From IMG/VR virus record IMGVR_UViG_3300045988_122545, positions 31,662 through 95,661 of that record: a stretch of DNA of 64,000 bases. One strand, given 5' to 3'. The first letter of the stretch is position 1. Every line of letters starts with the position of its first letter. The DNA comes from a virus. Below the pieces are notes generated by a model. It did not search any database. It saw only the letters and a program-made list of their open reading frames with translations, and was not told the origin of the DNA. A program made the translations under genes and the position numbers. Below, piece after piece: positions 703-60,653 of the stretch.

Positions 703-703
703 A

Positions 704-24429: not shown

Positions 24430-24576
24430 TTAAAGACCTAACATGCGTTTAAACCAGTTCTTCTTAGGTAAACCAAGTTGTTTACGCGCATTCAAATCTG
24501 CTTCAATAGCAGCATTAATTTCCCAAACTGTAACGCAATTTGTCAAATCCAAAATATAAGTATCATTCTTTTTCAT
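24430..24576 (-). CDS. Hypothetical small protein (48 aa)
   Basis: ATG 24574-24576 to TAA 24430-24432 (MKKNDTYILDLTNC...). Below the track cutoff. Last gene of the middle block. Confidence 0.4.
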   Translation of the reverse strand: MKKNDTYILDLTNCVTVWEINAAIEADLNARKQLGLPKKNWFKRMLGL

Positions 24577-24638
24577 AGTTTCTTTATTATTTTTTATTTT
24601 AAAAACGTTTTGTTAAAAGTATGTTTCAGTATGTTGTA

Positions 24639-25166
24639 TTATCTATCCAACTCGTATGCATTTATCTGAGCATTACCTCTAACTTTAGTATTCTCTAACT
24701 CTTCAGCTTTAACAGCTTTCTCAAGAAAATCTACTGTTTGAAATACAGCTTTAACCTTTTCCATACCAGCTAGCAATACTTGAATCTTCTTTTCATCCAA
24801 CTCTTCACTAAGAGATTCTTCATAATATGTACTGATTGTATCAATCTTATTACGCATTGCTTCCAGCATCTTCAAATTACGAGTATTAGATAATTCTTTA
24901 TATTCGTCTCTACAAGCTTGTTCTTCTGGAGTAAGAGTATAATTAGAATCACCAAATATCTTAATCTTTAAAGTGTTCTCTCTTATTTCTTTAACCATAC
25001 TTTTAACATATGGACTATTCCAGTAATCACAAAGTATAATAAAAGAAAGTACGTTATTCGCATGATTTTTATCTTTAGTAGATTCCCAATATTTTTTAAA
25101 AGGAGGTAAAGCAAGCATATCTGCATGTATAGTTACTTTACCACCAAGTATATCAAACAGCTTCAT
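24639..25166 (-). CDS. Hypothetical protein (175 aa)
   Basis: Intact ATG..TAA ORF. Start abuts the stop of the upstream gene. Confidence 0.6.
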   Translation of the reverse strand: MKLFDILGGKVTIHADMLALPPFKKYWESTKDKNHANNVLSFIILCDYWNSPYVKSMVKEIRENTLKIKIFGDSNYTLTPEEQACRDEYKELSNTRNLKMLEAMRNKIDTISTYYEESLSEELDEKKIQVLLAGMEKVKAVFQTVDFLEKAVKAEELENTKVRGNAQINAYELDR

Positions 25167-25513
25167 TATTTACAAGCTTTTATACATGAATCTGAACAGC
25201 AGTTACAATCACAACATTTTTCATGCTTTTCTTTTTCCTTATCAATGTTTTCTTTTAGAGCTTTATAGTAATTCTTCAATTGTTCATCTTTAATTACCAG
25301 TATTTCTCTATTGCTAATATCACCATTATTACCATACATTCTGATGATGATATCTCCAGCATTAACATGAATGTCATTCAACGTACCTTCTTCATCAGCT
25401 ATCCACATATAGTCAATGTTAGTACCAAAGTTATCTAACATTTTAATTTCATCATTTTCTTTATCAAACTTAATAAGATTGTATCCAGTTTTTGCATCAA
25501 TATATGTTATCAT
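25166..25513 (-). CDS. Hypothetical protein with Cys-rich C-terminus (115 aa)
   Basis: Intact ORF. C-terminal CCDCNCCSDSCIKACK. Confidence 0.55.
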   Translation of the reverse strand: MITYIDAKTGYNLIKFDKENDEIKMLDNFGTNIDYMWIADEEGTLNDIHVNAGDIIIRMYGNNGDISNREILVIKDEQLKNYYKALKENIDKEKEKHEKCCDCNCCSDSCIKACK

Positions 25514-25520
25514 AGTTTCT

Positions 25521-25691
25521 TTATTTTAATGTTTCACAATACTTTTCATTATAATATTTCAATCTTTCTTCAGCTTCTTCCCAACTAACTTCTTGATCTC
25601 TGTAATTAGGATACTGTCTATAATTGTATAAAATCCCTTGATAATATTTTATCAATTCGATTAGTTCTTGCTTATAATCTTCATTTGTCAT
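25521..25691 (-). CDS. Hypothetical small protein (56 aa)
   Basis: ATG 25689-25691 overlaps the end of the upstream gene. Ends on TAA 25521-25523. Fills an otherwise empty gap. Confidence 0.4.
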   Translation of the reverse strand: MTNEDYKQELIELIKYYQGILYNYRQYPNYRDQEVSWEEAEERLKYYNEKYCETLK

Positions 25692-26007
25692 TGTCTATAT
25701 CTTTTTCTTCTATAGTAACACCTTTACCGTTATGGTAACCCCAACTTAAAAACATCGCATTACACAATACGTGATCGATATGTGGAAGACCAGATTCTGG
25801 ATCATTCATTTCACCTTTACTTATTGCTGTTAAATGTCTCAATAATGCCCCTTTATAACGATTCCAGAAATTAGGTAACTCTTGCCAACTGTTATCAGAA
25901 TATTTTTTTGCTCCAAAAGTAAGAATTTTAGCAACTGATTCAATGGTTGACATCGGTACCAATTCCATTCTAACTTTATCATTATCGTATTTCTTTGCTT
26001 CGTTCAT
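25681..26007 (-). CDS. dATP/dGTP diphosphohydrolase-like protein (DUF5664-type N-terminal domain)
   Basis: KYDNDKVRMELVP....A.ILTFGAKKY..NSW......RY.GALLRHL.A...GE..DPESGLPHIDHV..N..FL matches my memory of that family's signature. Confidence 0.55.
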   Translation of the reverse strand: MNEAKKYDNDKVRMELVPMSTIESVAKILTFGAKKYSDNSWQELPNFWNRYKGALLRHLTAISKGEMNDPESGLPHIDHVLCNAMFLSWGYHNGKGVTIEEKDIDNDK

Positions 26008-26266
26008 CTTTAATCTTTTTAAAATGTTCTAATACTGTAGAATACATGTCCTGTATTTGCTGTTTACGTTCATCGATATCATCTGTTTCAGACATATTAT
26101 ACATCTGCTCCATAATTATATCGATGAAGTCTTGATATAATATCGTATCAGAGTTAATTAGTTCATCTACTAATTTAAACAATTCTTCAGCTACTTCTGT
26201 TTTAGCTACTTTATCAAAACCGTCTTTCTCTAATTTCCATAGTGTTTTAGATTCTTCGTATGTCAT
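25982..26266 (-). CDS. Hypothetical acidic protein (94 aa)
   Basis: ATG 26264-26266 (MTYEESK...) lies within ORF 25982..26287, directly after the TGA of the upstream small ORF. Confidence 0.5.
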   Translation of the reverse strand: MTYEESKTLWKLEKDGFDKVAKTEVAEELFKLVDELINSDTILYQDFIDIIMEQMYNMSETDDIDERKQQIQDMYSTVLEHFKKIKDERSKEIR

Positions 26267-26267
26267 A

Positions 26268-26399
26268 TCAAAATAATCTTTTATCAAAGTAAGCTACCGT
26301 GAACATTATATTCTGTTGTAATTGAAAATCGATTGGTATCGTCTTTAACCATTGAAACTGATATAAAGGCGCTAAACATTCTTCTATAAACTGTTGCAT
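26268..26399 (-). CDS. Hypothetical small protein (43 aa)
   Basis: ATG 26397-26399, 1 nt after the thyX TAA, to TGA 26268-26270 (MQQFIEECLAPLYQFQW...). Confidence 0.35.
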   Translation of the reverse strand: MQQFIEECLAPLYQFQWLKTIPIDFQLQQNIMFTVAYFDKRLF

Positions 26400-26400
26400 A

Positions 26401-28302
26401 TTATTTTATTTTATCTTTAATTTTATCATATAATTTATCAGCTAAGTAAGCAGCATCAGGATGTACTCCAGTGGCACCATATTTAGGACTACGTAACTTA
26501 AAGAATCCTTTCCAATCTGATTCAAATCCTGTCATTACTAATTCCGTTTTTAAAGCATTTGGTAATACTTGTCTAGCTTGTTGAGGCTTCCAACTTTCAC
26601 TAAGTAATGTAAAATACATAGATTCAGCAAATTCTAAAGATTGTTTGAAATAGTAGAAACACTCATTATCATCGGCTACTATTTCTCCAAACTTATTTAC
26701 TTCTGCCCAACTTGGTATAATAAATGTAATTTCATTATTAAACTTACTCTTACTATAATTACAGTATCTAGTAGATTCCATAGCAAAACTAAATACACGA
26801 TGTCTTACAAATTCATGTGATACACCTCTATCGCAAGTCCATTTAACGGTAATACGTTTTTCATGATATTCAGTTGGTTCACAGATATATTGTAAATCAT
26901 CTAACCAATTGTTTTCAACAAGTACACGTAGATTGGTTGTTACATAGTTATGAAACATTCCGTTTTCTTCAATCACTGCTAGTCTCGAATACTTATTCAT
27001 AGCATAGTCTTCTACAGCACAAAAATCTCTAGCGGAATTTGGTAAATCCAAGTAAACAGTACCATGTTCAAGCATAGCTCCATGACCAGATTTAATCATT
27101 CTATCAACAAATGCCTTAGCACTATCTTCAGTAATCTTATCTTCGGATTTATAACAATTACCAATCCAGCATGTCTTGCCGTTAAACCGTATACATATTA
27201 TACCATTATTTGTTTGTGTGCAATAAACGGTTGTAACAAGATGTGTTGTGCGAATATGTTTTCTAGAATCTATTATCCAAGAATCTCGCATATGTTCTTG
27301 TATATAACATTTTTGTGATATTTCTGGATCATAACTTATTGTCGCATTTCTTCCTTTTAAGATGAATAGTTCCTGTATTTCGTTTAGTAAACGTATACTT
27401 ACAGATAAATATCTATTAATTCTAGTTTTATTATGAGATCCATCACCTAAATATAGTATACGCAGAAAATGATCGATTTGTCTAACAGATAAATTTCGAA
27501 ACCATTCTGGTAAATGTTTGTTCTGTGAATATCTTCCACACATTTCTTCGAACCATTCTACATAACATTGATTTCCAAACTTTATCCATTTTATATTTGG
27601 TTTCCGTCTATCGAAATCAATATAATAATGTATATGTTCGTTTTTCAATGCGTTTATTACTAATTCGTATAACTCATTATTTTCATCTTGAGTTATACAT
27701 ATATAACTACCGGAATTATATTTTTCTCCATGAAATGTATGTCCTTCAGTTATATAAGCCGCAAGTATAGTTAATATATCGTCGTTTACATTAAAACTTT
27801 CTGTGGTATTATATTCTCTATTTCCACCATTCATTTTCTTAGTATACACGATATGTTCTTCAAAATCATTAATTTTGTATACTGCTCCATTAAAATATTT
27901 AGGTATTCTAAATCTATTTCTTTTTCCTGGATTATGTCCATATACTAATTGTTTAGCGTTTAGAAAAGTATATTGTCTTGCATTAACTGGAGATTGATAA
28001 ATACGATGATCTTCTGTTACAAGAAAATTTATATTTGCGTGAGTACATTCTACTCCGTCATTATCATAAGGTTTACTAAATATATTTGGTGCTTCATATT
28101 CCAATATATTTTTATCAGGATTATAAGTTAATACTCTATCTTTATTATTATCTATTTCATCAATATATATAAAACCTCTATCAGTTAATACTTCAGTATC
28201 TTCTGTAAAGCATGTTCGACCAGCTAATTCTATTTGTTTATACATACCTTCTAATCCAGGTTGCTGTTCAATTATTTCTACGTTTGGTTTTATCAATTTC
28301 AT
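26401..28302 (-). CDS. thyX: FAD-dependent thymidylate synthase ThyX (or a ThyX-family pyrimidine-modifying enzyme) interrupted by an intein
   Basis: Exteins give ...IELAGRT/CYKSEDK...GHGAMLEH...HEFVRHRVFSFAMESTRY (the ThyX RHR..S....S.RY motif). Confidence 0.8.
   Translation of the reverse strand: MKLIKPNVEIIEQQPGLEGMYKQIELAGRTCFTEDTEVLTDRGFIYIDEIDNNKDRVLTYNPDKNILEYEAPNIFSKPYDNDGVECTHANINFLVTEDHRIYQSPVNARQYTFLNAKQLVYGHNPGKRNRFRIPKYFNGAVYKINDFEEHIVYTKKMNGGNREYNTTESFNVNDDILTILAAYITEGHTFHGEKYNSGSYICITQDENNELYELVINALKNEHIHYYIDFDRRKPNIKWIKFGNQCYVEWFEEMCGRYSQNKHLPEWFRNLSVRQIDHFLRILYLGDGSHNKTRINRYLSVSIRLLNEIQELFILKGRNATISYDPEISQKCYIQEHMRDSWIIDSRKHIRTTHLVTTVYCTQTNNGIICIRFNGKTCWIGNCYKSEDKITEDSAKAFVDRMIKSGHGAMLEHGTVYLDLPNSARDFCAVEDYAMNKYSRLAVIEENGMFHNYVTTNLRVLVENNWLDDLQYICEPTEYHEKRITVKWTCDRGVSHEFVRHRVFSFAMESTRYCNYSKSKFNNEITFIIPSWAEVNKFGEIVADDNECFYYFKQSLEFAESMYFTLLSESWKPQQARQVLPNALKTELVMTGFESDWKGFFKLRSPKYGATGVHPDAAYLADKLYDKIKDKIK
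27157..28212 (-). mobile_element. thyX intein (352 codons) with LAGLIDADG-type endonuclease
   Basis: Starts CFTEDTEVLTDRGF after AGRT and ends ...TCWIGN followed by C(YKS). Motifs LAAYITEGH and ILYLGDGSH. Penultimate residue is Gly, not His. No TAG. Confidence 0.75.
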
Positions 28303-28303
28303 C

Positions 28304-28585
28304 TTAATTATTTTTAATTTTGTTAGTTTTATCTTTTTCTAATTTTAAGTGTTCTATAAAATCTGAAATTACATTTTCCAAACGTTGTAATTTATCTATA
28401 AAATCTTCTATTGTATCGTAATTTGCGATATGCAATTTTACTGTCTTACTACAATCACTTATTTTTAAAAACGTACTTCGATAAGTATCACCTACAATAT
28501 AATCTTTAACCATTCCATCAAATGCTACAACATTACTAGTAGATGGATTATTTTCTTTATTTAACCATATTTGTTTTTTATACAT
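28304..28585 (-). CDS. Hypothetical protein (93 aa)
   Basis: Intact ATG..TAA ORF packed against thyX. Confidence 0.55.
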   Translation of the reverse strand: MYKKQIWLNKENNPSTSNVVAFDGMVKDYIVGDTYRSTFLKISDCSKTVKLHIANYDTIEDFIDKLQRLENVISDFIEHLKLEKDKTNKIKNN

Positions 28586-28596
28586 AATAATATAAT

Positions 28597-28977
28597 TTAA
28601 TTATTGTTTTCAACACCATCAGGTTGAGGCATTTCTTGAATTCTTATTGCTTTTATTGTACTTTTACCATAAACTAAAGCTTTTACTATTCTATGCCAAC
28701 CATCTGCAATATAACCGTGATCATCTAGTATAACAGGATAATCCAAATTAGCTGATTGTACTCTTTTAAAATGATTAGCTATCTGTTTTACGTTACTCAA
28801 GCTAGTCCATGGAGAATAACTTAAATCTATACCAGCTAAAGGTAAATCGAATGTAGGATATTCTTTTTCTTTACACCATTGAATCAGATTAGATGCTGAC
28901 CATATATTATTATCAGAGCGATATGTATTTTCAGCAAGACCCTGTGTCTGTAGTTCTACTATCGGTGGATTGTTCAT
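28597..28977 (-). CDS. ParB-like nuclease-domain protein
   Basis: PVILDDHGYIADGWHRIVKA matches the ParB/Srx DGhHR core. Adjacent to a methyltransferase. Confidence 0.6.
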   Translation of the reverse strand: MNNPPIVELQTQGLAENTYRSDNNIWSASNLIQWCKEKEYPTFDLPLAGIDLSYSPWTSLSNVKQIANHFKRVQSANLDYPVILDDHGYIADGWHRIVKALVYGKSTIKAIRIQEMPQPDGVENNN

Positions 28978-29416
28978 TTTCTTCTTTATTGTTTTTAAAG
29001 ATTACTATCATACTTGGAAAAGGAGCTGGATAAAAAGCTTCACCATTTAAAGAAAATTTTAGTCTTCCTTTTATAAATCTTATTTCAGCTTTACCGTATA
29101 TAAATTTATGAAAATATCTTGTATCGGTTCTAGCCGGAATTAACATTACTACAGTAGCTCCGTTTTTTGCTTCATTACTGCATTTTTCAACCCATTGACT
29201 TATTTCCTTACCATAAGGAGGATTACAAAATACTATTTCATTTTCCCACGACTTACTTAAACCGTCATCTTCTTTAGTATAGAATTTTTCACATTTTGCA
29301 GTCTCTTTGGTACAGCATGGATCTAAAGTAAAATGAAATTCTGCATTTAATTTATCAAATAGTTTTTGTGGAGTTTCCCACTCCATCTTTTGCGATGATA
29401 GAAGAGCTTTGTTCAT
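28931..29416 (-). CDS. dam: Phage-type DNA N6-adenine methyltransferase (Dam family)
   Basis: FTLDPC...(catalytic) FCNPPYG...VVMLIPARTDT. Confidence 0.75.
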   Translation of the reverse strand: MNKALLSSQKMEWETPQKLFDKLNAEFHFTLDPCCTKETAKCEKFYTKEDDGLSKSWENEIVFCNPPYGKEISQWVEKCSNEAKNGATVVMLIPARTDTRYFHKFIYGKAEIRFIKGRLKFSLNGEAFYPAPFPSMIVIFKNNKEENEQSTDSRTTDTGSC

Positions 29417-29603
29417 ACTTTTTCTTTAATTTAAACTTAAATAAGTAAGCAAACATGATAGATTTCATATTATCATCGTCTGCTATTTTTTCTTTTGCAA
29501 ATTTAAATGGACTATTACAAATAACCTCTATTACTGGTATTGGTAAATTATATTTCTTAGCAAGAACTGAATATATGTTATTTTGCTTTTGTAACATCGT
29601 CAC
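29355..29603 (-). CDS. Hypothetical protein (82 aa)
   Basis: Intact ORF, overlapping its neighbours as in the rest of the operon. Confidence 0.45.
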   Translation of the reverse strand: MTMLQKQNNIYSVLAKKYNLPIPVIEVICNSPFKFAKEKIADDDNMKSIMFAYLFKFKLKKKYEQSSSIIAKDGVGNSTKTI

Positions 29604-30006
29604 TTATATTTATATCTTGAAAAGGTTCTTGTTCTAAATATACTTTCTTATAATTAGTATTATTTCTAAGATTATCTAGATTTGTAGCATCTACTGAATC
29701 AGGTCTAACAATATTAATTGCTATTAGATAATCTTCTATACTTTCACAAGACTTTATCAAGCTTCTTAATAATACTATTTCTTTTCTAGTATAAGGTTTG
29801 ATAGGTATGAATAAATGATAATCATATTTGAACTTATTCATTTTAGTTATTCCTATGCAACTCTCCTTAGTAAGGATAAATAAGGAATTATAAGGTTTCC
29901 TCCCTTTCTTAAATAACCATAAGAATCTTTTCCACAAACTGTATTTCTTTACTACAATCAAAGATCCTGCTGGGTATTTTTTATATGATTTTAAATATCT
30001 TCCCAT
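29578..30006 (-). CDS. Hypothetical protein (142 aa)
   Basis: Intact ATG..TAA ORF. Confidence 0.55.
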   Translation of the reverse strand: MGRYLKSYKKYPAGSLIVVKKYSLWKRFLWLFKKGRKPYNSLFILTKESCIGITKMNKFKYDYHLFIPIKPYTRKEIVLLRSLIKSCESIEDYLIAINIVRPDSVDATNLDNLRNNTNYKKVYLEQEPFQDINISDDVTKAK

Positions 30007-30368
30007 TATATCTTGAATATTAAAGTAAGTTGTACTCTATCTTTTATTATCTCTGGTATCAAAGCTTTATTTACAAAAAGCTCATCATCTGCTTTTCCTT
30101 TTACTAAGATACCTTTTTCTTTAAATTTTGTTATATATCGGCTTAAATTATCAGGTGTTATACCTAATTCTTGCTTGATAATCTTTCTATTCTTAGTAGA
30201 ACATACATTCTTACTTTCTCCGGAAGTTGGATCATATTTCATATCCAACTCCACTAGTTTAGAAAGTAATTCTAGTTCTCTATCTGTTATATCAAGTATG
30301 CCGTTTAGAGATTTTAAAAATTCATAGATTAAAGTATCTTTAGTAACAGTCTTTACTAATTTATTCAT
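30006..30368 (-). CDS. Winged-helix/HTH DNA-binding protein (MarR-like)
   Basis: NRKIIKQELGITPDNLSRYITKFKEKGILV is an HTH-like segment. Confidence 0.5.
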   Translation of the reverse strand: MNKLVKTVTKDTLIYEFLKSLNGILDITDRELELLSKLVELDMKYDPTSGESKNVCSTKNRKIIKQELGITPDNLSRYITKFKEKGILVKGKADDELFVNKALIPEIIKDRVQLTLIFKI

Positions 30369-30768: not shown

Positions 30769-30931
30769 CTTTATATCTATTTTTAAAATTGTTTTTCTTT
30801 TTATTATTACCGTAATTATTGCATTTATATGCTATATATAAAACAATAAACGCTATTATTAACATTTCCATGTATAATAAAACGCATATTTTGCGTGTTG
30901 TTAATATTTTTAACACTTTTTAATATCTAAT

Positions 30932-30956
30932 AAAAAAGCCCCGCTAAAAGCGAGGC
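30932..30956 (-). terminator. Rho-independent terminator after the GroES-like gene
   Basis: Minus-strand RNA GCCUCGC-UUUUA-GCGGGGC followed by U6. Confidence 0.65.
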
Positions 30957-30984
30957 TCAATTATATTGTAATATGATTATTAAA

Positions 30985-31338: not shown

Positions 31339-31346
31339 ATTCTAAA

Positions 31347-53654: not shown

Positions 53655-53734
53655 ACGTTTAATTTTTCTTTACTAACAATACCAGAAAATATCAGAAAAT
53701 ATCAGACTTTAGTAAAGTATTAGAATTTTTTATT

Positions 53735-54478: not shown

Positions 54479-54502
54479 TAACCTTAAACAAAATAAACAA
54501 TT

Positions 54503-55120
54503 ATGGGATACAGTAAAGAAAAAGCCGTTAAAATTGAAGATTTTAAGTCAGCATATATGCCTGCAGGTATTAATGAAAATTGCGTATTGAAAGAAGCAGT
54601 ATTGAAAGAATCACCTACAGGTAAACCTATTCTCGAAATTACTTTTGAAAACGAAGAAAGTCAAACAGTACATCATACTGAATGGGAACCTAAAATGGCA
54701 GTTTGGATGAAGTCTCAAGAAGATCTTGAAGATTCAATGAATAAGCAATATAAGCGTATGTTGCAAATCCTATTATGCTATTATAAGGATGAAGAAATCG
54801 ATTTTAATGGTGATAATTTCCGTGAATTTGCAAAATATATTGTAGATAAACTGGAAAATGCTGATAAAACATTGAAAGTACGTCTAAAAGTCGTATATAA
54901 CAAAGACGGATATACAACATTGCCAAATTCAGTAAGTCGTAAATTTATTGAGCCAATGTCTATATCTAAGGAAGATAGCGAAATTAAAATCGATCCTAAA
55001 TATGATATCATCATTAGACCTATTATTGCTAATAAAGAAACAGTAGTAAATAACCCTTTTAGTTCTGAAAACGTAACTACTACTCAGAACGTAAATCCTA
55101 GCGATGATTTACCATTTTAA
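54503..55120 (+). CDS. ssb: Single-stranded DNA-binding protein (T7 gp2.5-like class)
   Basis: Acidic C-terminal tip ...NPSDDLPF. Lies next to the Sak4-like ATPase. Confidence 0.5.
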   Translation: MGYSKEKAVKIEDFKSAYMPAGINENCVLKEAVLKESPTGKPILEITFENEESQTVHHTEWEPKMAVWMKSQEDLEDSMNKQYKRMLQILLCYYKDEEIDFNGDNFREFAKYIVDKLENADKTLKVRLKVVYNKDGYTTLPNSVSRKFIEPMSISKEDSEIKIDPKYDIIIRPIIANKETVVNNPFSSENVTTTQNVNPSDDLPF

Positions 55121-55168
55121 ACAGAACGTTAACTAAAAGCCTACATCAGGCGTAGTATGATGATACGA

Positions 55169-55206
55169 GGAGTATATCGATTATATTCGAATACTCCCCG
55201 TTTTTT
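55169..55206 (+). terminator. Rho-independent terminator
   Basis: GGAGTAT-(15 nt)-ATACTCC, then CCG and T6. Confidence 0.6.
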
Positions 55207-55214
55207 ATCTCATT

Positions 55215-55478
55215 ATGAAATCAGAATTTAATGTTGGAGATAAAGTAAAAGTAATAAAAAGTATTTGTGGTTATTGCAATTTTAAAGCTATAATAAAAAA
55301 AGTAGATAATCCTAATGGTTATCGACCATATTATTGTCATATATTAGATAATGAAAATAATGTAATAGATAATTTATGGCTTTCAAAAGAAGATTTAATA
55401 CCATTAAAAAATTCTGAAAAATATTTTACAATCTCCATAAGAAAACATAAACGAATTCATTTATCGTTTATAATATAA
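55215..55478 (+). CDS. Small protein, tandem paralog 1 (87 aa)
   Basis: Shares (F/K).(V/I)GD.V......(Y/C)..(Y/F)........V and the C-terminus EKYFTISIRKHKRIHLSF with the next gene. Confidence 0.55.
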   Translation: MKSEFNVGDKVKVIKSICGYCNFKAIIKKVDNPNGYRPYYCHILDNENNVIDNLWLSKEDLIPLKNSEKYFTISIRKHKRIHLSFII

Positions 55479-55496
55479 TTCATATTTTAATAAAAT

Positions 55497-55778
55497 ATGG
55501 AACCAAAATTTAAAATAGGAGATGAAGTAATATGCAAAAAGCATTATTTTGAATATTATAATAAGCATTTAAAAATAATAGATGTAGGACATTATTGGAA
55601 TTATAAAGGTGATCTTACATATTCTTATTGTTGTGAAGTATTAAAAAATTTAGATAATAAAAATACTATAATCTGGTTAAACGAATCAGAATTACAACCA
55701 ACTAAAAAATTGCAAAAAGAATATTTTACAATCTCCTTAAAAAAACACAAACGTATTAATTTAAAATTTACACTATGA
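55497..55778 (+). CDS. Small protein, tandem paralog 2 (93 aa)
   Basis: C-terminus KEYFTISLKKHKRINLKF. See the previous gene. Confidence 0.55.
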   Translation: MEPKFKIGDEVICKKHYFEYYNKHLKIIDVGHYWNYKGDLTYSYCCEVLKNLDNKNTIIWLNESELQPTKKLQKEYFTISLKKHKRINLKFTL

Positions 55779-56095
55779 AATTAAGTCGATTATTAGGATA
55801 TCTTAAAGGTAAACTTACAGAAATAATGATGACAACTCGTGAAAGAAAAATTAAAGCTGCATTGGAATCAGCTAAAGTAAACGCTGAAGAAGAAAAAGTA
55901 AATGCAGAATTAAAACTTGAAGAATTGTCTCAACAACTCGCAACAACTGATAATGTAACAGATATTATTGAACGGATGTCTAACGCATTTGATGATAAGA
56001 AAGACGCAGAGCTTAAATTAGAACGTATTGAACAAATCAAAAATTATCTTGAAGAAGAAGTAGAGATAGAAGAAGAAACTAAGGCTGCAACATAA
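55775..56095 (+). CDS. Hypothetical coiled-coil protein (106 aa)
   Basis: ATGA overlap with the previous gene. E/K-rich heptads. Confidence 0.5.
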   Translation: MKLSRLLGYLKGKLTEIMMTTRERKIKAALESAKVNAEEEKVNAELKLEELSQQLATTDNVTDIIERMSNAFDDKKDAELKLERIEQIKNYLEEEVEIEEETKAAT

Positions 56096-56193
56096 TACAG
56101 CCACATGGACTAATAAAGCGATATTGATAGAACTTGAAATATAGTGTGAGAGGGAGTCGCGTCCCTCTAGTCCACAAACCAAATTATTTAGTC

Positions 56194-57162
56194 ATGTACT
56201 CGCGAGAACAAACTAAACAACCAGAAATTACATTAGATTGGATACTATCTAAAGTAACAGAGTATGAAATATATGCTAAATATATTGGAGAATTCAAAGT
56301 TGGAATGATTTATAATAGTCCTTTTAGAAAAGATAAAAATCCATCATTCGGTATTTTTTATAGTAAAAGAACACATCAATTACTATTTAAAGACCATGGT
56401 ACAGGAGAATGTGGTAATATAATTAAATTTGTACAATTATATACTGGTAAAACAGAATATAAAGATATATTAAAAGATATAGTCAGCAGATTAAATATTA
56501 CAAATAACACAAAATTAGATCATTCTAAAGAATATAAACAACCAACAGAGACAATTATAGGTGTTGTAAGACAAGATTTTACAGAAGCCGATAAACAATA
56601 TTGGTCGCAATTTAATATTGACTTAGAAACACTTAAAAAGTACGACGTAAATAGTATTAAATACTATCTATGTAACGGTATTGTAAAAGGTATTTATAAA
56701 CCTGAAAATCCAATGTATGCATATAAAGTTTATAATAATTTTAAAATATATAGACCCTTAGCAGATAAGTATCATAAATGGAGAAATAATTTAACAGAAT
56801 ACGATATCCAAGGTTATAAACAATTACCAGAAAAAGGTGATGTCTTAATCATAACAAAATCTTTAAAAGATGTTATGTGTTTATATAAAATGGGTATACC
56901 TGCAATTTCTCCAGCATCAGAAAGTACATTTATTCCTAACATAGCTCTAGAAGAGCTTAAGAAGCGTTTTAAACGTATTATTATACTTTTTGATAGAGAT
57001 AAAGCTGGTTGTAAATATCTTCGTAAAATAAGCCAAGAAACAGGCTTAGAACCGATGTTAATCCATAAAAAATTTCAAGCAAAAGATATATCTGATGCTA
57101 TTAAATTAAATGGATTTGAAACAATAAAAAATTGGATTAAAAAAGAAATACAAAAAATATGA
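56194..57162 (+). CDS. DnaG-type primase (TOPRIM) with a degenerate zinc ribbon
   Basis: SPFRKDKNPSFGIF.......LFKDHGTGECGNIIKFV parallels CPFH.EKTPSF.V......F.CFGCG..GD.I.F. TOPRIM-like IITKSLKDV...ILFDRDKAG. ATG 56194 is in frame within track ORF 56134..57162. Confidence 0.65.
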   Translation: MYSREQTKQPEITLDWILSKVTEYEIYAKYIGEFKVGMIYNSPFRKDKNPSFGIFYSKRTHQLLFKDHGTGECGNIIKFVQLYTGKTEYKDILKDIVSRLNITNNTKLDHSKEYKQPTETIIGVVRQDFTEADKQYWSQFNIDLETLKKYDVNSIKYYLCNGIVKGIYKPENPMYAYKVYNNFKIYRPLADKYHKWRNNLTEYDIQGYKQLPEKGDVLIITKSLKDVMCLYKMGIPAISPASESTFIPNIALEELKKRFKRIIILFDRDKAGCKYLRKISQETGLEPMLIHKKFQAKDISDAIKLNGFETIKNWIKKEIQKI

Positions 57163-57524
57163 AAAAACTATTAGACTTAGGAAAATCCTTTTTAAAAGGA
57201 TTTATTTCAATACTTCGAATATTTATGTATTTGATAACTATTATTTTTCTATTACCAGCTACATTGATTACAACAATCGATAAAATATGTTCTGGAGAAT
57301 GGAATGAAGTAAAGTTAAGACATAAATTTTTAAAAGAAGCAGTAAAATTTATTTTTAATAATATTGATAATCCAATATTAATTACAAATATAACTGAATT
57401 AAAATCTACTAAAACAGTAGAAGGACAAACAGAAACAAATATACTAAGCTATGTTAAAATAGGACCATTCGGTAGCAAAAAAGAAACAACTCTTAACTAC
57501 GAAAACAAAATCGAAGAAGAGTAA
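57159..57524 (+). CDS. Membrane protein (121 aa)
   Basis: ATGA overlap with the primase stop. One long hydrophobic helix. Confidence 0.5.
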   Translation: MKKLLDLGKSFLKGFISILRIFMYLITIIFLLPATLITTIDKICSGEWNEVKLRHKFLKEAVKFIFNNIDNPILITNITELKSTKTVEGQTETNILSYVKIGPFGSKKETTLNYENKIEEE

Positions 57525-57882
57525 AGTTAAAAATGCTACTCCAAATATATACGACGGAATTAAATTTCGTAGTAAGCTAGAAACTTATACTTATAAAAAA
57601 CTAAAAGAAGCAAATATATTTGCTGAATATGAGTCAACTCATTTTGAGTTAATACCCAAATTTGAGTATCAAGGAGAAAAAGTAAGAGCAATGACATACT
57701 TACCAGACTTCGTAGGTAAAGACTTTATAATTGAATGTAAAGGACTCATGGGAGATTCCTTTCCTTTAAGATGGAAAATCTTTAAATATACTTTGATGAA
57801 AAATAATTCTAATTATAAGTTATATTTAGTAAGGAATCAAAAGCAAGTTGATGCTTTAATTCAACAATTAAAACAAAAATAA
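57451..57882 (+). CDS. PD-(D/E)xK nuclease-like protein (DUF1064 / resolvase-like); start unresolved
   Basis: The homology-like region (NIYDGIKFRSKLE...YLPDF....IIECKG) begins about 150 nt upstream of the only downstream ATG (57691). The only upstream in-frame ATG (57451) is followed by an in-frame TAG (57460..57462). Confidence 0.4.
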
Positions 57883-57883
57883 T

Positions 57884-58648
57884 ATGAGCCAATTTGTAAA
57901 AGTAGGAAATGCAATTGTACCAAAACCCAAAGGTTTTGATTATGATTTAGTACTTGGTAAAATATATGATTTAAGTGATTACTATGCACCACGATTAAAA
58001 GAGAATGGTGATTTTAATTTACCAGAAAAAATTTACGAATCGGAAAAAGATAAACGATTTAAAAATATTGTATTAAATCATTTTAAAAACACATCTCAAC
58101 AAACAACTGGCGTATTATTAGCAGGTGAAAAAGGTACAGGTAAATCAATTCAAGCAAAACTAATTGCAAAAGCATCAGGTTTACCAATTATTAATGTATC
58201 TCAAGAAATTCAACGTAATGCAATGATCGAATTCTTCAAAAATTTTGATGAACCAGTATGTCTAATTTTTGATGAATTTGATAAATATTTTAATTCAGAA
58301 GATTTGTTATGTTTATTAGATGGAATAGAAAAAACAACAAAAATGTTAATTATATTCACGTGTAATGATACAGACAAATTGTCTGAATATTTAAAAGATC
58401 GTTGTTCACGAATACGTTATATTCGTAAATTTACAAGTAAAGACAATGCTTCTTTTATTCCAGAACTTATTGATGAATTAGGTTTAGAGAATAAAGAAGA
58501 TTTAATTACTTTTTGTGAAAATTCCATTAAATATCCAACGGTAGATAACGTTAAAGCTTTCTTAACAGAATATAAATCTCTTAAAGAAGAAAAGAACGAT
58601 ATTACGCCTACTGAAGCAGTTGAATTTCTTAATATTACTTTAGTATGA
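57884..58648 (+). CDS. AAA+ ATPase
   Basis: Walker A LAGEKGTGKS. Walker B CLIFDEFD. Confidence 0.65.
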   Translation: MSQFVKVGNAIVPKPKGFDYDLVLGKIYDLSDYYAPRLKENGDFNLPEKIYESEKDKRFKNIVLNHFKNTSQQTTGVLLAGEKGTGKSIQAKLIAKASGLPIINVSQEIQRNAMIEFFKNFDEPVCLIFDEFDKYFNSEDLLCLLDGIEKTTKMLIIFTCNDTDKLSEYLKDRCSRIRYIRKFTSKDNASFIPELIDELGLENKEDLITFCENSIKYPTVDNVKAFLTEYKSLKEEKNDITPTEAVEFLNITLV

Positions 58649-59520
58649 AAATTTGTGGAATAAGTGATATTCATGGTAATTTATTAGAAAACGTCCCTGA
58701 ATGCGATGTATTATGCATCGCAGGGGACGTAATTACCTTAAACGCTCAAAGAAATTTTGATGCATCGGAATATTGGTGGAAAAACCGATTTATTCCATGG
58801 GTAATGCAATTACCATGTAAAAAAGTAATAATTGTTCCTGGAAATCATGATTTCTATCTTGAAAATCTATATACAACAAATAGATGGGAAGAATTTTGTG
58901 ATTACATGGCAATAAATACTGAAGGAAAATTATATTTCCTTATTGATCAATCATTTGAATACGAAGGAATAAAATTCTATGGTACTCCATGGATTAATCC
59001 TATCGATTTTCAAAGAAACAAATGGGCTTTCGAGAGTTATGAATGTAACGATGATAACCCATATTCAAAAATACCAGAATGCGATGTTCTTATTACTCAT
59101 GATTCTCCGATTGAAAATGAATTACTTAATATAGAAAGTTGGTATAAATGTAAATATCATTTCTATGGTCATTGGCATGATGGAGAAAGTAAACCAAGTG
59201 AAGGAAAATACAATTGTTCTAGGTTAAACGATTACTATAGTTTCAAAAAGAATTTTGAATTTCCTACAATAAACATTAATACAACTATGGAAAAAACCAA
59301 ATATGAATTATTACAAGAATATATAGAAACGCTCAAAAATAATCTAATTATTAGTAATGAAGCTGATAAACAGCGAGTTATTAGTCAAATAGATGAAACT
59401 TTTATTAAATTCTTGGATAATCCACAAGATAAAGAAGATGAAATTATTTGGACTGGATCTTCAATAATTACTGACATGGATGGAAATAATGAGGAGAGTA
59501 TAGAAGATGAATACAAATAA
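58645..59520 (+). CDS. Calcineurin-like metallophosphoesterase
   Basis: SDIHG, AGDV, PGNHD, THDSP and GHWH motifs in canonical order. Confidence 0.75.
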   Translation: MKICGISDIHGNLLENVPECDVLCIAGDVITLNAQRNFDASEYWWKNRFIPWVMQLPCKKVIIVPGNHDFYLENLYTTNRWEEFCDYMAINTEGKLYFLIDQSFEYEGIKFYGTPWINPIDFQRNKWAFESYECNDDNPYSKIPECDVLITHDSPIENELLNIESWYKCKYHFYGHWHDGESKPSEGKYNCSRLNDYYSFKKNFEFPTININTTMEKTKYELLQEYIETLKNNLIISNEADKQRVISQIDETFIKFLDNPQDKEDEIIWTGSSIITDMDGNNEESIEDEYK

Positions 59521-60517
59521 AATGGATATTTCAATTCCATATTACGAAGATAATTCGCGTATTTCTAACTCTGCCTTAGGTTGGTTTATTAAATATGGAC
59601 CACAATATCTTCGTAACATGTTAGATGGAAAAGAAGAAGGTTTAAAAGGTTCTTTCCTTGAAAAAGGTACCATGATTCATGAATATATTCTTCAACCAGA
59701 TGAATTCTGGAAAGATTATATAATTCTTGATTTTGAAGTACCTAAAGTAAAACAACAAAAAGATTTATGTGAATGTTATGCACATTTAATCGAAGTAGAA
59801 CCTTTAGAGTCTAAAGAAACTTTAGCTTTAAAAGCGTATCGTCAATCTTATTCTAATAATAAGAAAGATGATGTAGTAAAAGAAGAAGCTTTAAAAATAA
59901 TAGATACTTATTCTCAGTATATAGAATATTGTAAGAATAAGGATACTAAAAAAGTAATATCTTTTGCTGATTTGAATACACTTAAAAAAATTAAAGATAA
60001 CATCAAAGAACACAAAAAGGCAAATGAATTATTATTCAATCTACCTGACACATTTAAAGCATATAATGAATTCCATATAAATTGGGAAGTACCGAAATAC
60101 GATAACATAAAATGTAAATCTCTACTTGATAGAGTATGTTTTGACCACGTTAATAAGAAAATTATCTTAATTGACTTAAAAACAACACAAAATGTCTATA
60201 ATTTCGCACATTCTGTAGAAGAATATGATTATTTTAGACAAATTGCATTTTATGGACTTGCAATACAGTGGTATATGCAAGAGGTTTTAAATCTTAATTC
60301 TGAAGATTATGATTTTGAAGCCTATATTATTGCTATTGGAAAAAATAGTAATAATGAAATTAGAGTTTTTAATATGAACAAACAAGAGATATTGAGTCAA
60401 AAAGTAGACCAAATATCAGAAACTCTCAAAGAAATATCATATCATATCAATTCAGGAAATTGGACTCATACTCGTAATTATTATGAGAATGATGGAACTG
60501 AAGAATTATATAGCTAA
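59507..60517 (+). CDS. PD-(D/E)xK exonuclease (RecE/RecB-family, recombination)
   Basis: D(RV)...ILIDLKTT...Y..Q.A.Y arrangement. Lies in a module with the SSB and the Sak4-like ATPase. Confidence 0.55.
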   Translation: MNTNKMDISIPYYEDNSRISNSALGWFIKYGPQYLRNMLDGKEEGLKGSFLEKGTMIHEYILQPDEFWKDYIILDFEVPKVKQQKDLCECYAHLIEVEPLESKETLALKAYRQSYSNNKKDDVVKEEALKIIDTYSQYIEYCKNKDTKKVISFADLNTLKKIKDNIKEHKKANELLFNLPDTFKAYNEFHINWEVPKYDNIKCKSLLDRVCFDHVNKKIILIDLKTTQNVYNFAHSVEEYDYFRQIAFYGLAIQWYMQEVLNLNSEDYDFEAYIIAIGKNSNNEIRVFNMNKQEILSQKVDQISETLKEISYHINSGNWTHTRNYYENDGTEELYS

Positions 60518-60653
60518 AAAAGAAAACGATTTATTAATCGAACTTATGGTAAATAATTGTGTTATTGAAGAACCTATCGAAAGCCTTATGCTCGATAGAG
60601 CAGAAGAACAGGTAATTTGTACTGAAGATTTAGTACAAAATGTTGAGAATTGA
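60483..60653 (+). CDS. Hypothetical small protein (56 aa)
   Basis: ATG 60483 to TGA 60651-60653, overlapping the exonuclease 3' end. Last ORF before the terminator. Confidence 0.35.
   Translation: MRMMELKNYIAKKENDLLIELMVNNCVIEEPIESLMLDRAEEQVICTEDLVQNVEN

What the first reader, a model, noticed from the sequence alone, without database searches (positions are those of the whole stretch)
24430..60653. TAG-free interior: about 36 kb of early/middle genes use TAG neither as sense nor as stop
I checked the stop of every credible gene in this interval. All end on TAA (the great majority) or TGA, none on TAG, and none needs TAG read-through. The one possible exception is at 57460. The only ORF-track entries in the window's plus-strand half that end on TAG are two that I reject as genes, 33991..34194 and 60640..61119 (the latter just past this interval). 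The early genome is therefore readable under both codes, while the late genome needs the suppressor. This is the partition expected if recoding acts as a translational timer for late and lytic functions.
Basis: seen in the sequence. Interest (0 to 1): 0.75.

Follow-up and report, generated by a model that had tools for sequence, protein, structure and literature searches.

The report
Dual-coded early block, amber-gated resolvase
This gut crAss-like phage reads TAG as an amino acid in its late genes but keeps about 36 kb of replication genes free of TAG, a published pattern; the one real exception is a DNA-junction-cutting nuclease that carries a single early TAG in every relative checked.

Summary
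The window is a crAss-like phage (Crassvirales, Suoliviridae). Its closest public record is cr6_1.

**Observation.** It largely holds. In 24430-60653 I count 58 genes. Their stops are TAA 46, TGA 12, TAG 0, and there is 1 in-frame TAG in 9375 codons. The flanking late genes have 86 in 8496 codons. TAG as a trinucleotide is not depleted: 520 on the + strand and 530 on the - strand.

**Two details are wrong.**
- The "possible exception" at 57460 is real. The T7-endonuclease-I-like Holliday-junction resolvase (57451-57882) needs TAG read-through.
Its TAG lies 8 codons before the true TAA.

**Interpretation.** It is consistent with everything I could test, but expression timing was not testable. 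It is also already published:
- TAG-poor and TAG-rich genome domains: Ivanova 2014, as cited in bioRxiv 2026.08.21.746148.
- Recoding confined to late genes: Yutin 2021.
- Timing of late and lysis genes: Borges 2021.
- A "dual-coded" early block, a "soft switch", and the suppressor tRNA at the head of the late strand: Pfennig 2022.

**What may be new.** All 74 complete resolvase genes in related loci carry one (rarely two) TAG near the 5' end, in at least 11 position classes. Their neighbours have none in more than 100,000 aligned codons.

**Also seen.** An unusual long-arm suppressor tRNA, three Hatchet ribozymes and a two-piece tmRNA.

The parts
1..23948 (-). Recoded late block. Every long ORF needs TAG read as sense. 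It includes the endolysin (4401-4859, 3 TAG), major capsid protein (12525-13991, 1 TAG), portal (17230-19725, 3 TAG) and TerL with two in-frame inteins (19728-23948, 19 TAG).
   Evidence: ORFs fragmented under code 11, fused with TAG as sense. (homology to cr6_1 gp04, gp17, gp21 and gp22). (86 TAG in 8496 codons for the late set, which also includes 61140-63953).
23970..23989 (-). Terminator-like hairpin followed by a T run, lying between the suppressor tRNA and the TerL start codon (23948).
   Evidence: 4 terminator-like sites found in 23500-25000 against 0.4 expected from shuffles. Sequence.
24215..24303 (-). Suppressor tRNA with anticodon CUA. It is 89 nt with a long variable arm (type II), U33 and A37, and discriminator A. 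It sits at the boundary between the TAG-free and the recoded - strand genes.
   Evidence: ARAGORN. (cloverleaf as the minimum-free-energy fold, -30.5 kcal/mol). (best Rfam match is tRNA-Sec at 33 bits, below threshold). (all 78 suppressors in relatives are 73-78 nt, and this sequence is absent from 242 loci). (a 27-mer from it has no exact match in IMG/VR).
24430..32167 (-). TAG-free - strand block of 20 genes. It includes intein-containing ThyX (26401-28302), a Dam methyltransferase (28931-29416), a DUF5664 protein and regulator-like proteins.
32536..60653 (+). TAG-free + strand block of 38 genes, with one exception (the resolvase, listed separately). It includes a sigma-like protein (42342-42893), DNA polymerase (49672-51522), helicase (52095-53075), Sak4 (53735-54478), primase (56134-57162), AAA ATPase, metallophosphoesterase and a PD-(D/E)XK nuclease (59507-60517).
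57451..57882 (+). T7-endonuclease-I-like (DUF1064) Holliday-junction resolvase with a genuine in-frame TAG at codon 4 (57460-57462). This is the only recoded gene inside the interval.
   Evidence: MLK-TAG in the window against MLKQ in cr6_1; no alternative start. (TAG present in all 74 complete homologues, in at least 11 position classes, all 5'-proximal). (family assignment).
60640..61143 (+). Last + strand gene (167 aa). It has an in-frame TAG at 61117-61119, 8 codons before the TAA.
   Evidence: a 37% identical homologue also has a TAG near its end. (7 protein clusters). (the tail after the TAG is conserved..LFY* and ..SS[FP]II*; two lineages lack the TAG).
61140..63953 (-). Recoded late gene for the giant RNA-polymerase-like virion protein (homologue of cr6_1 gp37). 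It has 15 in-frame TAG in 937 codons.
   Evidence: 979 TAG in 53014 aligned codons across relatives.
34371..34457 (+). tRNA-Leu(UAA) in the early block. It is followed by two Hatchet ribozymes (34523-34685 and 34797-34921). A third Hatchet lies at 36672-36800.
39787..40408 (+). Two-piece (permuted) tmRNA gene. The acceptor piece is about 39787-39845 and the coding piece about 40305-40408. The tag reading frame is 40367-40408 (GNKFVTDYTRIAA*). An Rfam tRNA match carrying a 57-nt insertion (40034-40159) lies between the pieces.

Best explanation
The window is about two thirds of a Suoliviridae (delta-group) crAss-like phage genome that reads TAG as a sense codon, glutamine at the family level, by means of its own suppressor tRNA(CUA).

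**Shown**
- Genes whose products are needed late carry TAG at about 10-18 per 1000 codons and cannot be made without suppression. These are the virion proteins, terminase, the virion-packaged RNA-polymerase-like protein and the endolysin.
- The roughly 36 kb between them holds replication, recombination and nucleotide-metabolism genes plus small unknown genes. This block is "dual-coded": TAG is avoided as a sense codon and also as a stop codon.

**Inferred**
- Sense TAG is avoided so that the block is translatable by the naive host, where RF1 terminates at TAG.
- Stop TAG is avoided so that the products do not change once the suppressor accumulates.
- The suppressor gene is the last element of the TAG-free - strand operon. 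It is followed by a terminator-like hairpin and then TerL. tRNA build-up is therefore coupled to early or middle transcription, and late proteins can appear only afterwards.

**The refinement found here**
One nuclease inside the replication operon, the Holliday-junction resolvase, is kept out of the dual-coded set by a single TAG near its 5' end. Full-length enzyme therefore needs the suppressor, although the gene sits among replication genes (co-transcription with them is assumed, not shown). My inference is that this delays an enzyme that cuts branched DNA until packaging time.
For: **The partition**
- Counts and statistics in the window.
- The same partition is visible in the RefSeq annotation of cr6_1.
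- It holds across 242 related loci.
- TAG aligns mainly with TAG or Gln, and CAG/CAA sites flip to TAG repeatedly.

**The suppressor**
- A suppressor tRNA sits at the same boundary in cr6_1, and 78 tRNA(CUA) genes were found in the related loci.
- Terminator-like hairpin between the tRNA and TerL.

**Avoidance of TAG stops**
- 0 of 58 in the window, against 13.4% in standard-code crAss001.
- In relatives, TAG is the first stop-like codon at only 38 of 893 interior gene ends. A TAA or TGA follows within 30 codons in all but two of the 38.

**The resolvase gate**
-.
- Taking one representative per TAG-position class, the N-terminal part has 13 TAG against 14 Gln codons. The C-terminal part has 0 TAG against 37 Gln codons. 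P = 4.7e-5 against the late-gene TAG share of 0.236.
- No homologue lacks a TAG. Four unique proteins have two by this count, and two of those depend on an uncertain upstream ATG.
- Standard-code Steigviridae homologues have no internal TAG.

**Literature**
- PMC7886860, bioRxiv 10.1101/2021.08.26.457843 and bioRxiv 10.1101/2022.06.29.495998 describe the block structure and the timer or soft-switch idea.
- T4 endonuclease VII acts mainly at packaging and can cleave stalled forks (PMC3016281).
Against: - No expression data exist for this phage. "Early", "middle" and "late" are inferred from gene function and position.
- The window covers about 64 kb of a genome of roughly 98 kb, so genes outside it were not checked.
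- In some relatives a few - strand "interior" genes carry mid-gene TAGs: homologues of 24639-25166, 30006-30368 and 29355-29603. The boundary is therefore not absolute in the family.
- For the resolvase, one TAG per gene of about 130 codons is close to the neutral density of late genes. Presence alone does not prove a selected gate. Only the 5' bias and the absence of a zero-TAG state do.
- Part of the 5' bias could reflect the low constraint of the Lys-rich N-terminal tail.
- The related sequences share ancestry. 34 of the 48 unique proteins form one TAG-position class.
- The amino acid inserted by this phage's unusual type II suppressor is unknown.
Confidence: 0.8

Rival explanations
1. Attack on the host rather than a timer. 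The suppressor exists mainly to corrupt host translation by reading through host TAG stops. The phage simply removes TAG stops everywhere, and it tolerates TAG sense codons only where they happen to drift in.
For: Yutin 2021 proposes this as an anti-defence strategy. TAG stops are absent from the whole window, late genes included. A phage-encoded two-piece tmRNA could deal with ribosomes that run through host stop codons. That link is my inference.
Against: It does not explain why sense TAG is excluded from about 9400 interior codons while reaching 24% of Gln-type codons in late genes of the same genome. It also does not explain why the suppressor sits exactly at the block boundary, or why a single gene inside the replication block carries a 5' TAG in every lineage. 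It is compatible with the timer as an additional effect.
Confidence: 0.1
2. Modular ancestry. The replication block is TAG-free because it was recently acquired by recombination from standard-code phages, not because selection keeps it dual-coded.
For: crAss-like phages exchange replication genes, for example DNA polymerase families (Yutin 2021 abstract). Code changes occur over short evolutionary distances.
Against: A block taken from a standard-code phage should have about 13% TAG stops, as crAss001 does. Here there are none in 58 genes. The TAG-free state persists in orthologues down to 25-50% protein identity across 242 loci, which is far too deep for recent import. The - strand part of the block is contiguous and co-oriented with the late genes.
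Confidence: 0.04
3. Composition or gene-calling artefact. TAG is rare because the genome is 30% G+C, and ORFs defined with the standard code cannot contain TAG by construction.
For: The genome is AT-rich.
Against: TAG occurs 520 and 530 times on the two strands of the interval, and 407 times out of frame inside interior genes, but once in frame. ORFs called with TAG as sense do not fuse or extend. Late genes of the same composition carry 86 in-frame TAGs. The absence of TAG stops has P between about 3e-4 and 6e-6.
Confidence: 0.01
4. For the resolvase only: it is simply a late gene that happens to lie in the replication block. It accumulates TAG neutrally like other late genes, and no gate has been selected.
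For: The mean of about 1.1 TAG per gene of about 130 codons is near the late-gene density of 10-18 per 1000 codons.
Against: The count is under-dispersed: 44 unique proteins with one TAG, 4 with two, none with zero or three. Every TAG lies in the first third of the alignment, apart from a terminal TAG-TAA in L082 and L083. None of the 37 Gln codons in the C-terminal two thirds is TAG, taking one representative per class (P = 4.7e-5). The position has turned over through at least 11 classes without a TAG-free state being sampled.
Confidence: 0.3

Closest known systems
Dual-coded early block and "soft switch" in crAss-like phages with codes 11 and 15 (Pfennig, Lomsadze and Borodovsky, Mgcod; bioRxiv 10.1101/2022.06.29.495998)
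   Same: One block translates to nearly the same proteins under either code and is enriched in replication and transcription genes. The other block needs code 15 and is enriched in virion genes. The suppressor tRNA lies at the 5' end of the late coding strand. The window shows all three.
   Different: That text does not mention a single recoded gene embedded in the dual-coded block: a search of it for "resolvase", "nuclease" and "isolated" gave no occurrences. Here the switch of code does not coincide with the strand switch at about 32.2-32.5 kb. It falls inside the - strand at the tRNA.
Recoding as regulator of late and lysis gene translation (Borges et al., bioRxiv 10.1101/2021.08.26.457843; later Nat Microbiol 2022, from memory)
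   Same: TAG-recoded crAss-like phages of about 105 kb have structural and lysis genes in the alternative code and DNA replication machinery in the standard code, with a suppressor tRNA. The early phase uses the host code. The endolysin homologue here carries 3 TAG.
   Different: Their preferentially recoded crAss families are an amidase, a spanin, a tail tube protein and one unknown. "Resolvase", "nuclease" and "recombination" do not occur in the preprint. Their closest analogue to the resolvase case is a TGA-rich intron endonuclease inside an early gene of Agate phages.
Delta-group (Suoliviridae) crAss-like genomes of Yutin et al. 2021, e.g. cr6_1, NC_055894.1 (PMC7886860)
   Same: Same gene order. 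Protein identity runs from about 30% to 90% for syntenic genes. DNA polymerase DNA is 76% identical. tRNA(CUA) lies between TerL and the small-gene block. TAG occurs in late genes only. TerL with two inteins carrying TAG is described for a delta genome.
   Different: cr6_1 has a 74-nt type I suppressor annotated tRNA-Gln, while the window has an 89-nt type II one. The resolvase TAG is at codon 33 in cr6_1 and codon 4 here.
Low-amber and high-amber genome domains of Ivanova et al. 2014 (Science 344:909), as cited
   Same: A bimodal distribution of TAG along a phage genome now recognised as a crAss-like phage.
   Different: The original explanation invoked phage-host antagonism through release factors. 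I did not read the paper itself.
Delayed action of phage T4 endonuclease VII (gene 49)
   Same: A junction-resolving nuclease whose main role is debranching DNA at packaging and which can cleave stalled forks (PMC3016281). From memory (Barth et al. 1988), translation of gene 49 from early transcripts is blocked by an mRNA hairpin and becomes efficient from late transcripts. That gives the same outcome as an amber gate.
   Different: This is an analogy of function only. Endonuclease VII is not homologous to the DUF1064/T7-endonuclease-I-like protein here, and the delaying device is RNA structure, not a recoded stop codon.

Membership tests
TAG-recoded (code 15) crAss-like phage with a dual-coded early block | In-frame TAG in conserved late genes (TerL, portal, major capsid protein, RNA-polymerase-like protein) | tested here: met
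   TAG counts are TerL 19, portal 3, major capsid protein 1 and the RNA-polymerase-like protein 15. Alignments to cr6_1 run through the TAGs.
TAG-recoded (code 15) crAss-like phage with a dual-coded early block | Phage-encoded suppressor tRNA with anticodon CUA | tested here: met
   24215-24303 (-) by ARAGORN, with a cloverleaf fold. It scores below the Rfam tRNA threshold, and its best match is tRNA-Sec at 33 bits.
TAG-recoded (code 15) crAss-like phage with a dual-coded early block | Replication/early block without in-frame TAG | tested here: met
   1 TAG in 9375 codons against 10.1 per 1000 in late genes. The one exception is the resolvase.
TAG-recoded (code 15) crAss-like phage with a dual-coded early block | Early block gives the same proteins under codes 11 and 15 (no TAG stops) | tested here: met
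   Stops are TAA 46, TGA 12, TAG 0. P is about 2e-4 to 3e-4 against the crAss001 baseline.
TAG-recoded (code 15) crAss-like phage with a dual-coded early block | TAG decoded as glutamine | tested here: inconclusive
   At the family level TAG aligns mostly with TAG or Gln, CAG/CAA sites flip to TAG repeatedly, and MLK-TAG aligns with MLKQ. This phage's own suppressor is a type II tRNA unlike the Gln-like ones of all relatives examined. Its charging cannot be predicted here.
TAG-recoded (code 15) crAss-like phage with a dual-coded early block | TAG-free genes expressed early and TAG-containing genes late | not testable with these tools
   Only gene function and position are available. There are no transcript or protein data.
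Crassvirales, family Suoliviridae (delta group) | Homology and synteny of core genes with classified members | tested here: met
   Protein identity to cr6_1 (Suoliviridae; Bearivirinae; Afonbuvirus) is major capsid protein 90%, portal 75%, TerL 62-78% and DNA polymerase 68%. Gene order is the same. Identities this low probably place the window in a different genus or species.
DUF1064 / T7-endonuclease-I-like Holliday-junction resolvase | Sequence match to the family profile | tested here: met
   Pfam DUF1064 scores 42.3 bits against a cut-off of 24.7, E 1.1e-10. PHROG 190 "Holliday junction resolvase" has E 2.4e-13.
DUF1064 / T7-endonuclease-I-like Holliday-junction resolvase | Catalytic E ... 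PD ... E-x-K motif of T7 endonuclease I | tested here: inconclusive
   FRSKLE, PDF and ECK are invariant in 9 diverse homologues. They align with T7 endonuclease I (1m0d), but only at E 0.24. Pfam Phage_endo_I scores 16 bits, below its cut-off of 29.
DUF1064 / T7-endonuclease-I-like Holliday-junction resolvase | Cleavage of four-way junctions | not testable with these tools
   This needs an enzyme assay.

The most novel reading that the evidence does not exclude
Recoded Suoliviridae phages use the code switch gene by gene as well as block by block.

- A single amber codon is kept by selection within the first third of the Holliday-junction resolvase gene. It has moved between at least 11 position classes but is never lost.
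- This junction-cutting nuclease, although it sits among replication genes, would then be made only once the suppressor tRNA has built up.
- A second gene (60640-61143) uses a TAG 8-14 codons before its end. That would give a short form early and a form with a hydrophobic tail late.
- In this particular phage the Gln-like suppressor has been replaced by a long-arm tRNA that may insert a different amino acid.
Probability: 0.4. Interest if true: 0.55.

Novelty: already known. Interest (0 to 1): 0.3.

Why it matters
The TAG-free interior itself adds nothing to what is published. It is one more clean example of the dual-coded early block of TAG-recoding crAss-like phages, and near-identical genomes are already in IMG/VR.

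Its practical value is for annotation. This window must be called with TAG as sense, otherwise TerL, portal, the RNA-polymerase-like protein and the resolvase are truncated.

The resolvase result would matter more if it holds. It would be natural evidence that a recoded stop codon is used as a per-gene translational switch, independent of transcription units. The target has an obvious reason to be delayed, because it cuts branched replication intermediates. That turns the timer hypothesis into a simple experiment: replace TAG with CAG in one small gene.

It also offers a design idea for amber-gated expression of toxic nucleases.

Tried and rejected
- **N-terminal extensions through TAG.** Five interior genes could extend upstream through a TAG (from 59480, and 25681-26082, 30361-30846, 41204, 32413). 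Homologues start at or after the standard-code start, so I rejected all five.
- **The 32413 extension.** It looked conserved, but in relatives the stretch contains TAA and TGA. It is a conserved non-coding element (about 32428-32475, single copy), not coding sequence.
- **Composition and strand-bias explanations.** Rejected by frame-specific counts and by the TAG-free - strand block.
- **Locus search with the 24639-25166 protein.** It gave only 4 loci, so I used 30006-30368 instead.
- **Locus search with the alignment of orf60640.** It found nothing new in IMG/VR. The large protein database did find homologues.
- **Baseline for stop-codon usage.** p-crAssphage accessions NC_024711 and JQ995537 are not in the phage collection. 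I used crAss001.
- **Resolvase gate in Steigviridae.** All 59 loci fetched with crAss001 gp72 use the standard code. They serve only as a negative control.
- **The type II suppressor elsewhere.** An exact 27-mer from it has no match in IMG/VR. I did not scan metagenome or bacterial genome collections.
- **The ORF-free region 45105-47052.** Rfam at a permissive threshold and a repeat search found nothing. No ORF appears there under any single stop reassignment.
- **Literature.** Searches for a recoded resolvase and for tmRNA in crAss-like phages returned nothing specific. This covers the held library only.

Full report
**What the window is**

The window is 30% G+C. GC skew shows three coding blocks: the - strand to about 32 kb, the + strand to about 61 kb, then the - strand again.

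Megablast of the polymerase region hits only uncultured crAss-like phages. The best is cr6_1 (NC_055894.1; Crassvirales, Suoliviridae, Bearivirinae, Afonbuvirus) at 76% over 2.4 kb. Gene order is the same as in cr6_1. Protein identities are major capsid protein 90%, portal 75% and DNA polymerase 68%.

IMG/VR holds near-identical contigs, for example UViG_3300045988_097163, with 96-100% identity in the segments compared.

**Checking the observation**

Under the standard code, the - strand from 1 to 23948 and from 61140 onward breaks into fragments that end on TAG. With TAG read as sense they fuse into long genes:

| Gene | Coordinates | Length | In-frame TAG |
|---|---|---|---|
| TerL | 19728-23948 | 1406 aa | 19 |
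| Portal | 17230-19725 | 831 aa | 3 |
| Unnamed late gene | 1529-4453 | 974 aa | 16 |
| RNA-polymerase-like protein | 61140-63953 | 937 aa | 15 |

Between them nothing changes when TAG is made sense.

My gene table for 24430-60653 has 58 genes. They cover 77% of the interval. Stops are TAA 46, TGA 12, TAG 0, and there is 1 in-frame TAG in 9375 codons.

The 19 late genes in the window have 86 TAG in 8496 codons. At that rate 95 would be expected in the interior, giving P of about 3e-40. In late genes TAG makes up 24% of Gln-type codons (86 TAG, 208 CAA, 70 CAG). In the interior the figures are 1 TAG, 229 CAA and 74 CAG.

The trinucleotide is not avoided as such. There are 520 TAG on the + strand and 530 on the - strand of the interval, and 407 in the two off-frames of interior genes.

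For stops, TAG is 19% of off-frame stop triplets and 13.4% (13 of 97) of annotated stops in the standard-code crAss-like phage crAss001. Zero TAG stops therefore has P between about 3e-4 and 6e-6.

The core observation is real and not due to chance or base composition.

**Two details that do not hold**

*The resolvase.* ORF 57451-57882 is the homologue of cr6_1 gp45, annotated as a Holliday junction resolvase. Identity is 61% over 117 residues.
- The conserved part starts at codon 25.
- The TAG is codon 4.
- The next ATG, GTG or TTG is codon 81.
- The N-terminus reads MLK-TAG-D where cr6_1 reads MLKQ.

The gene therefore needs read-through, and TAG aligns with Gln. Family assignment: Pfam DUF1064 (42 bits, cut-off 24.7), PHROG 190 "Holliday junction resolvase", and a weak match to T7 endonuclease I with the E / PD / ExK residues invariant.

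- It has 7 protein clusters in the large database, at 37-100% identity.
- It always sits after the PD-(D/E)XK (DUF3799) nuclease and a 52-56 aa ORF, and before the convergent giant gene.
- The residues after the TAG are conserved. The window ends ..KG-TAG-LNLALFY*. A 43% homologue ends ..SSLFY* without a TAG. Others end ..KG-TAG-FNTSLYYYSSSFII* and ..AGLYQPFLFYLSSPII*.

The TAG at 61117-61119 is therefore a sense codon, 8 codons before the TAA. It is present in three of five lineages.

*Other candidates.* The other ORFs that could extend upstream through a TAG are not supported by homologues. The apparent extension of 32536-33117 is a conserved non-coding element.

The ORF-poor gaps are not hidden recoded genes. 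They hold tRNAs, three Hatchet ribozymes, a two-piece tmRNA and conserved non-coding islands.

**The pattern in relatives**

The RefSeq annotation of cr6_1 shows the same partition. Late genes carry up to 57 in-frame TAG. Genes from 26035 to 63523 carry almost none. No CDS ends on TAG.

I fetched 242 related loci from IMG/VR around three interior markers and counted TAG inside tblastn alignments of unique sequences:

| Gene | In-frame TAG / aligned codons |
|---|---|
| DNA polymerase | 0 / 63552 |
| 43328-44704 homologue | 0 / 26987 |
| PD-(D/E)XK nuclease | 0 / 24622 |
| Primase | 1 / 23855 |
| Helicase | 0 / 22182 |
| Portal | 795 / 59175 |
| TerL | 1028 / 61349 |
| RNA-polymerase-like protein | 927 / 50316 |

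At interior gene ends in relatives, the first stop-like codon is TAA 695 times, TGA 160 and TAG 38 (4%). A TAA or TGA follows within 30 codons in all but two of the 38 TAG cases. This corresponds to the near-identical "isoforms" described by Pfennig et al.

In some lineages three small - strand genes near the tRNA do carry mid-gene TAGs. The boundary is therefore somewhat fuzzy in the family, though clean in this window.

**The resolvase in relatives**

All 74 complete resolvase ORFs (48 unique proteins) contain TAG. Forty-four unique proteins have one and four have two; two of the four depend on an uncertain upstream ATG. None has zero.

The TAG falls in 11 position classes in the alignment. 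Two more variants, at codons 6 and 7 (L007 and L008), were left out of that alignment. All lie in the first third of the gene, apart from a terminal TAG-TAA in L082 and L083. Examples:
- codon 2 (M-TAG-NQKIKNAT);
- codon 4 (MLK-TAG, MQK-TAG, MRK-TAG);
- codons 5, 6, 7, 12, 13 and 19;
- codon 31 or 33 (YTY-TAG-KLKEA), where other lineages have Lys or Gln.

Taking one representative per class, the N-terminal part has 13 TAG against 14 ordinary Gln codons. The C-terminal part has 0 against 37. P = 4.7e-5 compared with the late-gene share.

The genes on either side have no TAG at all. Standard-code Steigviridae homologues, including crAss001 gp72, have no internal TAG.

The firm conclusion is that the resolvase is not dual-coded. 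The further claim, that the single 5' TAG is a selected gate rather than neutral drift in a late-acting gene, is supported by three things: the position bias, the narrow count, and turnover without loss. It is not proven. Many of the sequences are related, and the N-terminal tail is weakly constrained.

**How it most likely works**

*Shown.* The codon partition, the suppressor tRNA, and their positions.

The tRNA(CUA) at 24215-24303 (-) follows the last TAG-free - strand gene (24430-24576). After it come a tRNA-like element and a terminator-like hairpin at 23989-23970. TerL then starts at 23948.

*Inferred.*
1. On entry the host terminates at TAG with RF1, so only TAG-free genes are made.
2. 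The suppressor is transcribed with the - strand early or middle operon and accumulates.
3. Once it competes with RF1, the late proteins, the endolysin (3 TAG) and the resolvase are translated in full.
4. Interior genes avoid TAG stops, so their products do not change after the switch.

This is the published model.

For the resolvase, the analogy with T4 endonuclease VII gives a reason to delay it. That enzyme acts mainly in debranching DNA at packaging and can cleave stalled forks (PMC3016281).

**Rivals**
- *Host sabotage by read-through.* It may coexist with the timer, but it does not explain the frame-specific and gene-specific distribution.
- *Recent import of the replication block from standard-code phages.* The absence of TAG stops and the depth of conservation argue against it.
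- *Composition or circular ORF calling.* The frame-specific counts exclude it.

**Comparison with what is known**

The finding matches the following published descriptions:
- the low-amber and high-amber genome domains of Ivanova 2014 (cited);
- the late and lysis timing model (Borges 2021);
- the "dual-coded" early block with a "soft switch" and the tRNA at the head of the late strand (Pfennig 2022).

TerL with two TAG-containing inteins is also described for a delta genome. The finding is therefore already known.

"Resolvase" does not occur in any of the four texts where I searched for it. "Nuclease" does not occur in the two where I searched for that word. A library search for stop-codon recoding together with Holliday junction found nothing. 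This is absence from the held library only, not proof of novelty.

**The suppressor**

All 78 tRNA(CUA) genes found in relatives are 73-78 nt type I tRNAs that start with U. Their sequences are diverse. The window's suppressor is 89 nt with a long variable arm, a small D-loop lacking GG, and a T-loop reading TTTGACT.

The flanks are 96-98% identical to relatives, while the roughly 500-bp intergenic cassette differs. The sequence is absent from the 242 loci, and a 27-mer from it has no exact match in IMG/VR.

Compared with the near-identical contigs, the relatives have TAG where the window has CAG (or once CAA, once GAA) at 7 sites, and the reverse is never seen. At most of these sites the more distant relatives have CAA or CAG. 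Which amino acid this tRNA inserts cannot be decided here.

**Verdict**

Interest is low to moderate. The moderate part comes from the conserved 5' amber codon in the resolvase gene and from the non-coding RNA content of the early region.

Noticed in passing
window 24215-24303 (-) and the intergenic cassette about 23976-24476: The suppressor tRNA is an 89-nt type II tRNA with a long variable arm. All 78 suppressors in related loci are 73-78 nt and Gln-like. The cassette between the conserved flanks (96-98% identical) has been swapped. The sequence is absent from the 242 loci, and a 27-mer from it has no exact match in IMG/VR.
   Followed up: partly
window about 24083-24152 (-): A tRNA-like element lies just downstream of the suppressor. 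It has a perfect T-arm (GTTGG TTCAAGC CCAAC), an acceptor stem (TCCACAG/CTGTGGA) and a D-arm, but a defective anticodon stem. The region is 93% identical in the related contig L164. ARAGORN and Rfam do not call it.
   Followed up: no
window 34523-34685, 34797-34921, 36672-36800 (+): Three Hatchet self-cleaving ribozymes (69-94 bits, threshold 51). Two of them directly follow tRNA-Leu(UAA). The seven relatives scanned carry 1-3 Hatchet copies each. Some also carry RAGATH-6, RAGATH-7, RAGATH-7-assoc or RAGATH-9 RNAs in the same early intergenic gaps.
   Followed up: partly
window about 39787-39845 and 40305-40408 (+); L136 7622-7856: A two-piece (permuted) tmRNA gene in the early block. Five of seven relatives tested pass the Rfam threshold (49-58 bits against 47). 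The tag peptide GNKFVTDYTRIAA* is identical in the window and L136, with synonymous codon differences and different stop codons. In the window the two pieces are about 460 nt apart, and the Rfam score there is only 22 bits. ARAGORN misses it.
   Followed up: partly
window 40034-40159 and 40458-40525 (+): Two tRNA matches that Rfam finds and ARAGORN misses. The first has a 57-nt insertion after an anticodon loop reading TTTCGAA, which suggests Arg(UCG). The second has a 3-nt anticodon loop and so is only tRNA-like.
   Followed up: no
window 45105-47052: A 2-kb stretch with no ORF over 130 codons under any single stop reassignment, no Rfam match and no notable repeats. It nevertheless has three islands conserved with distant relatives: 45285-45460, 45945-46060 and 46425-46600. 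cr6_1 has a matching gap at 45795-47876.
   Followed up: partly
window about 32428-32475 (+): A conserved non-coding element (..TTATCGGCAGGAAATACCCC..) upstream of the first + strand gene, in the divergent switch region. It is single-copy in the window. It is conserved in relatives whose downstream protein is only 30-40% identical. It may be a promoter or an origin element.
   Followed up: partly
window 19728-23948 (-) and 26401-28302 (-): TerL carries two in-frame insertions of about 340 aa, taken to be inteins. They correspond to TerL residues of about 132 and 304 in cr6_1. The first has no match in a contig that is 96-99% identical in the flanking TerL segments. ThyX also appears to carry an intein (LAGLIDADG-like match) and has no TAG.
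   Followed up: partly
window 11371-12453 (-), with 4864-5148, 8058-9044 and 14037-15230 (-): Some genes inside the recoded late block have no TAG, notably the GIY-YIG-type homing endonuclease next to the major capsid protein gene. In cr6_1, three of four homing or HNH endonucleases are also TAG-free.
   Followed up: no
L165/L164 against window: 14037-15230, portal 17230-19725, TerL 19728-23948: At 7 sites one or both of the near-identical relatives have TAG where the window has CAG (or once CAA, once GAA). There are no window-specific TAGs. The same Gln sites flip to TAG repeatedly in several lineages (portal codons 453, 513 and 534).
   Followed up: partly
related loci, homologues of window 24639-25166, 30006-30368 and 29355-29603: In some relatives these - strand interior genes carry mid-gene TAGs. 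For the 24639 homologue, 52% of unique sequences do, mostly at query positions 68 and 83. The code boundary therefore shifts between lineages. The window's copies have none.
   Followed up: partly
L082 and L083, resolvase gene end: These two resolvase genes have a TAG at codon 2 and end with the tandem TAG TAA. Several interior genes of relatives likewise end TAG followed by a few codons and then TAA or TGA. These would give short read-through isoforms.
   Followed up: partly
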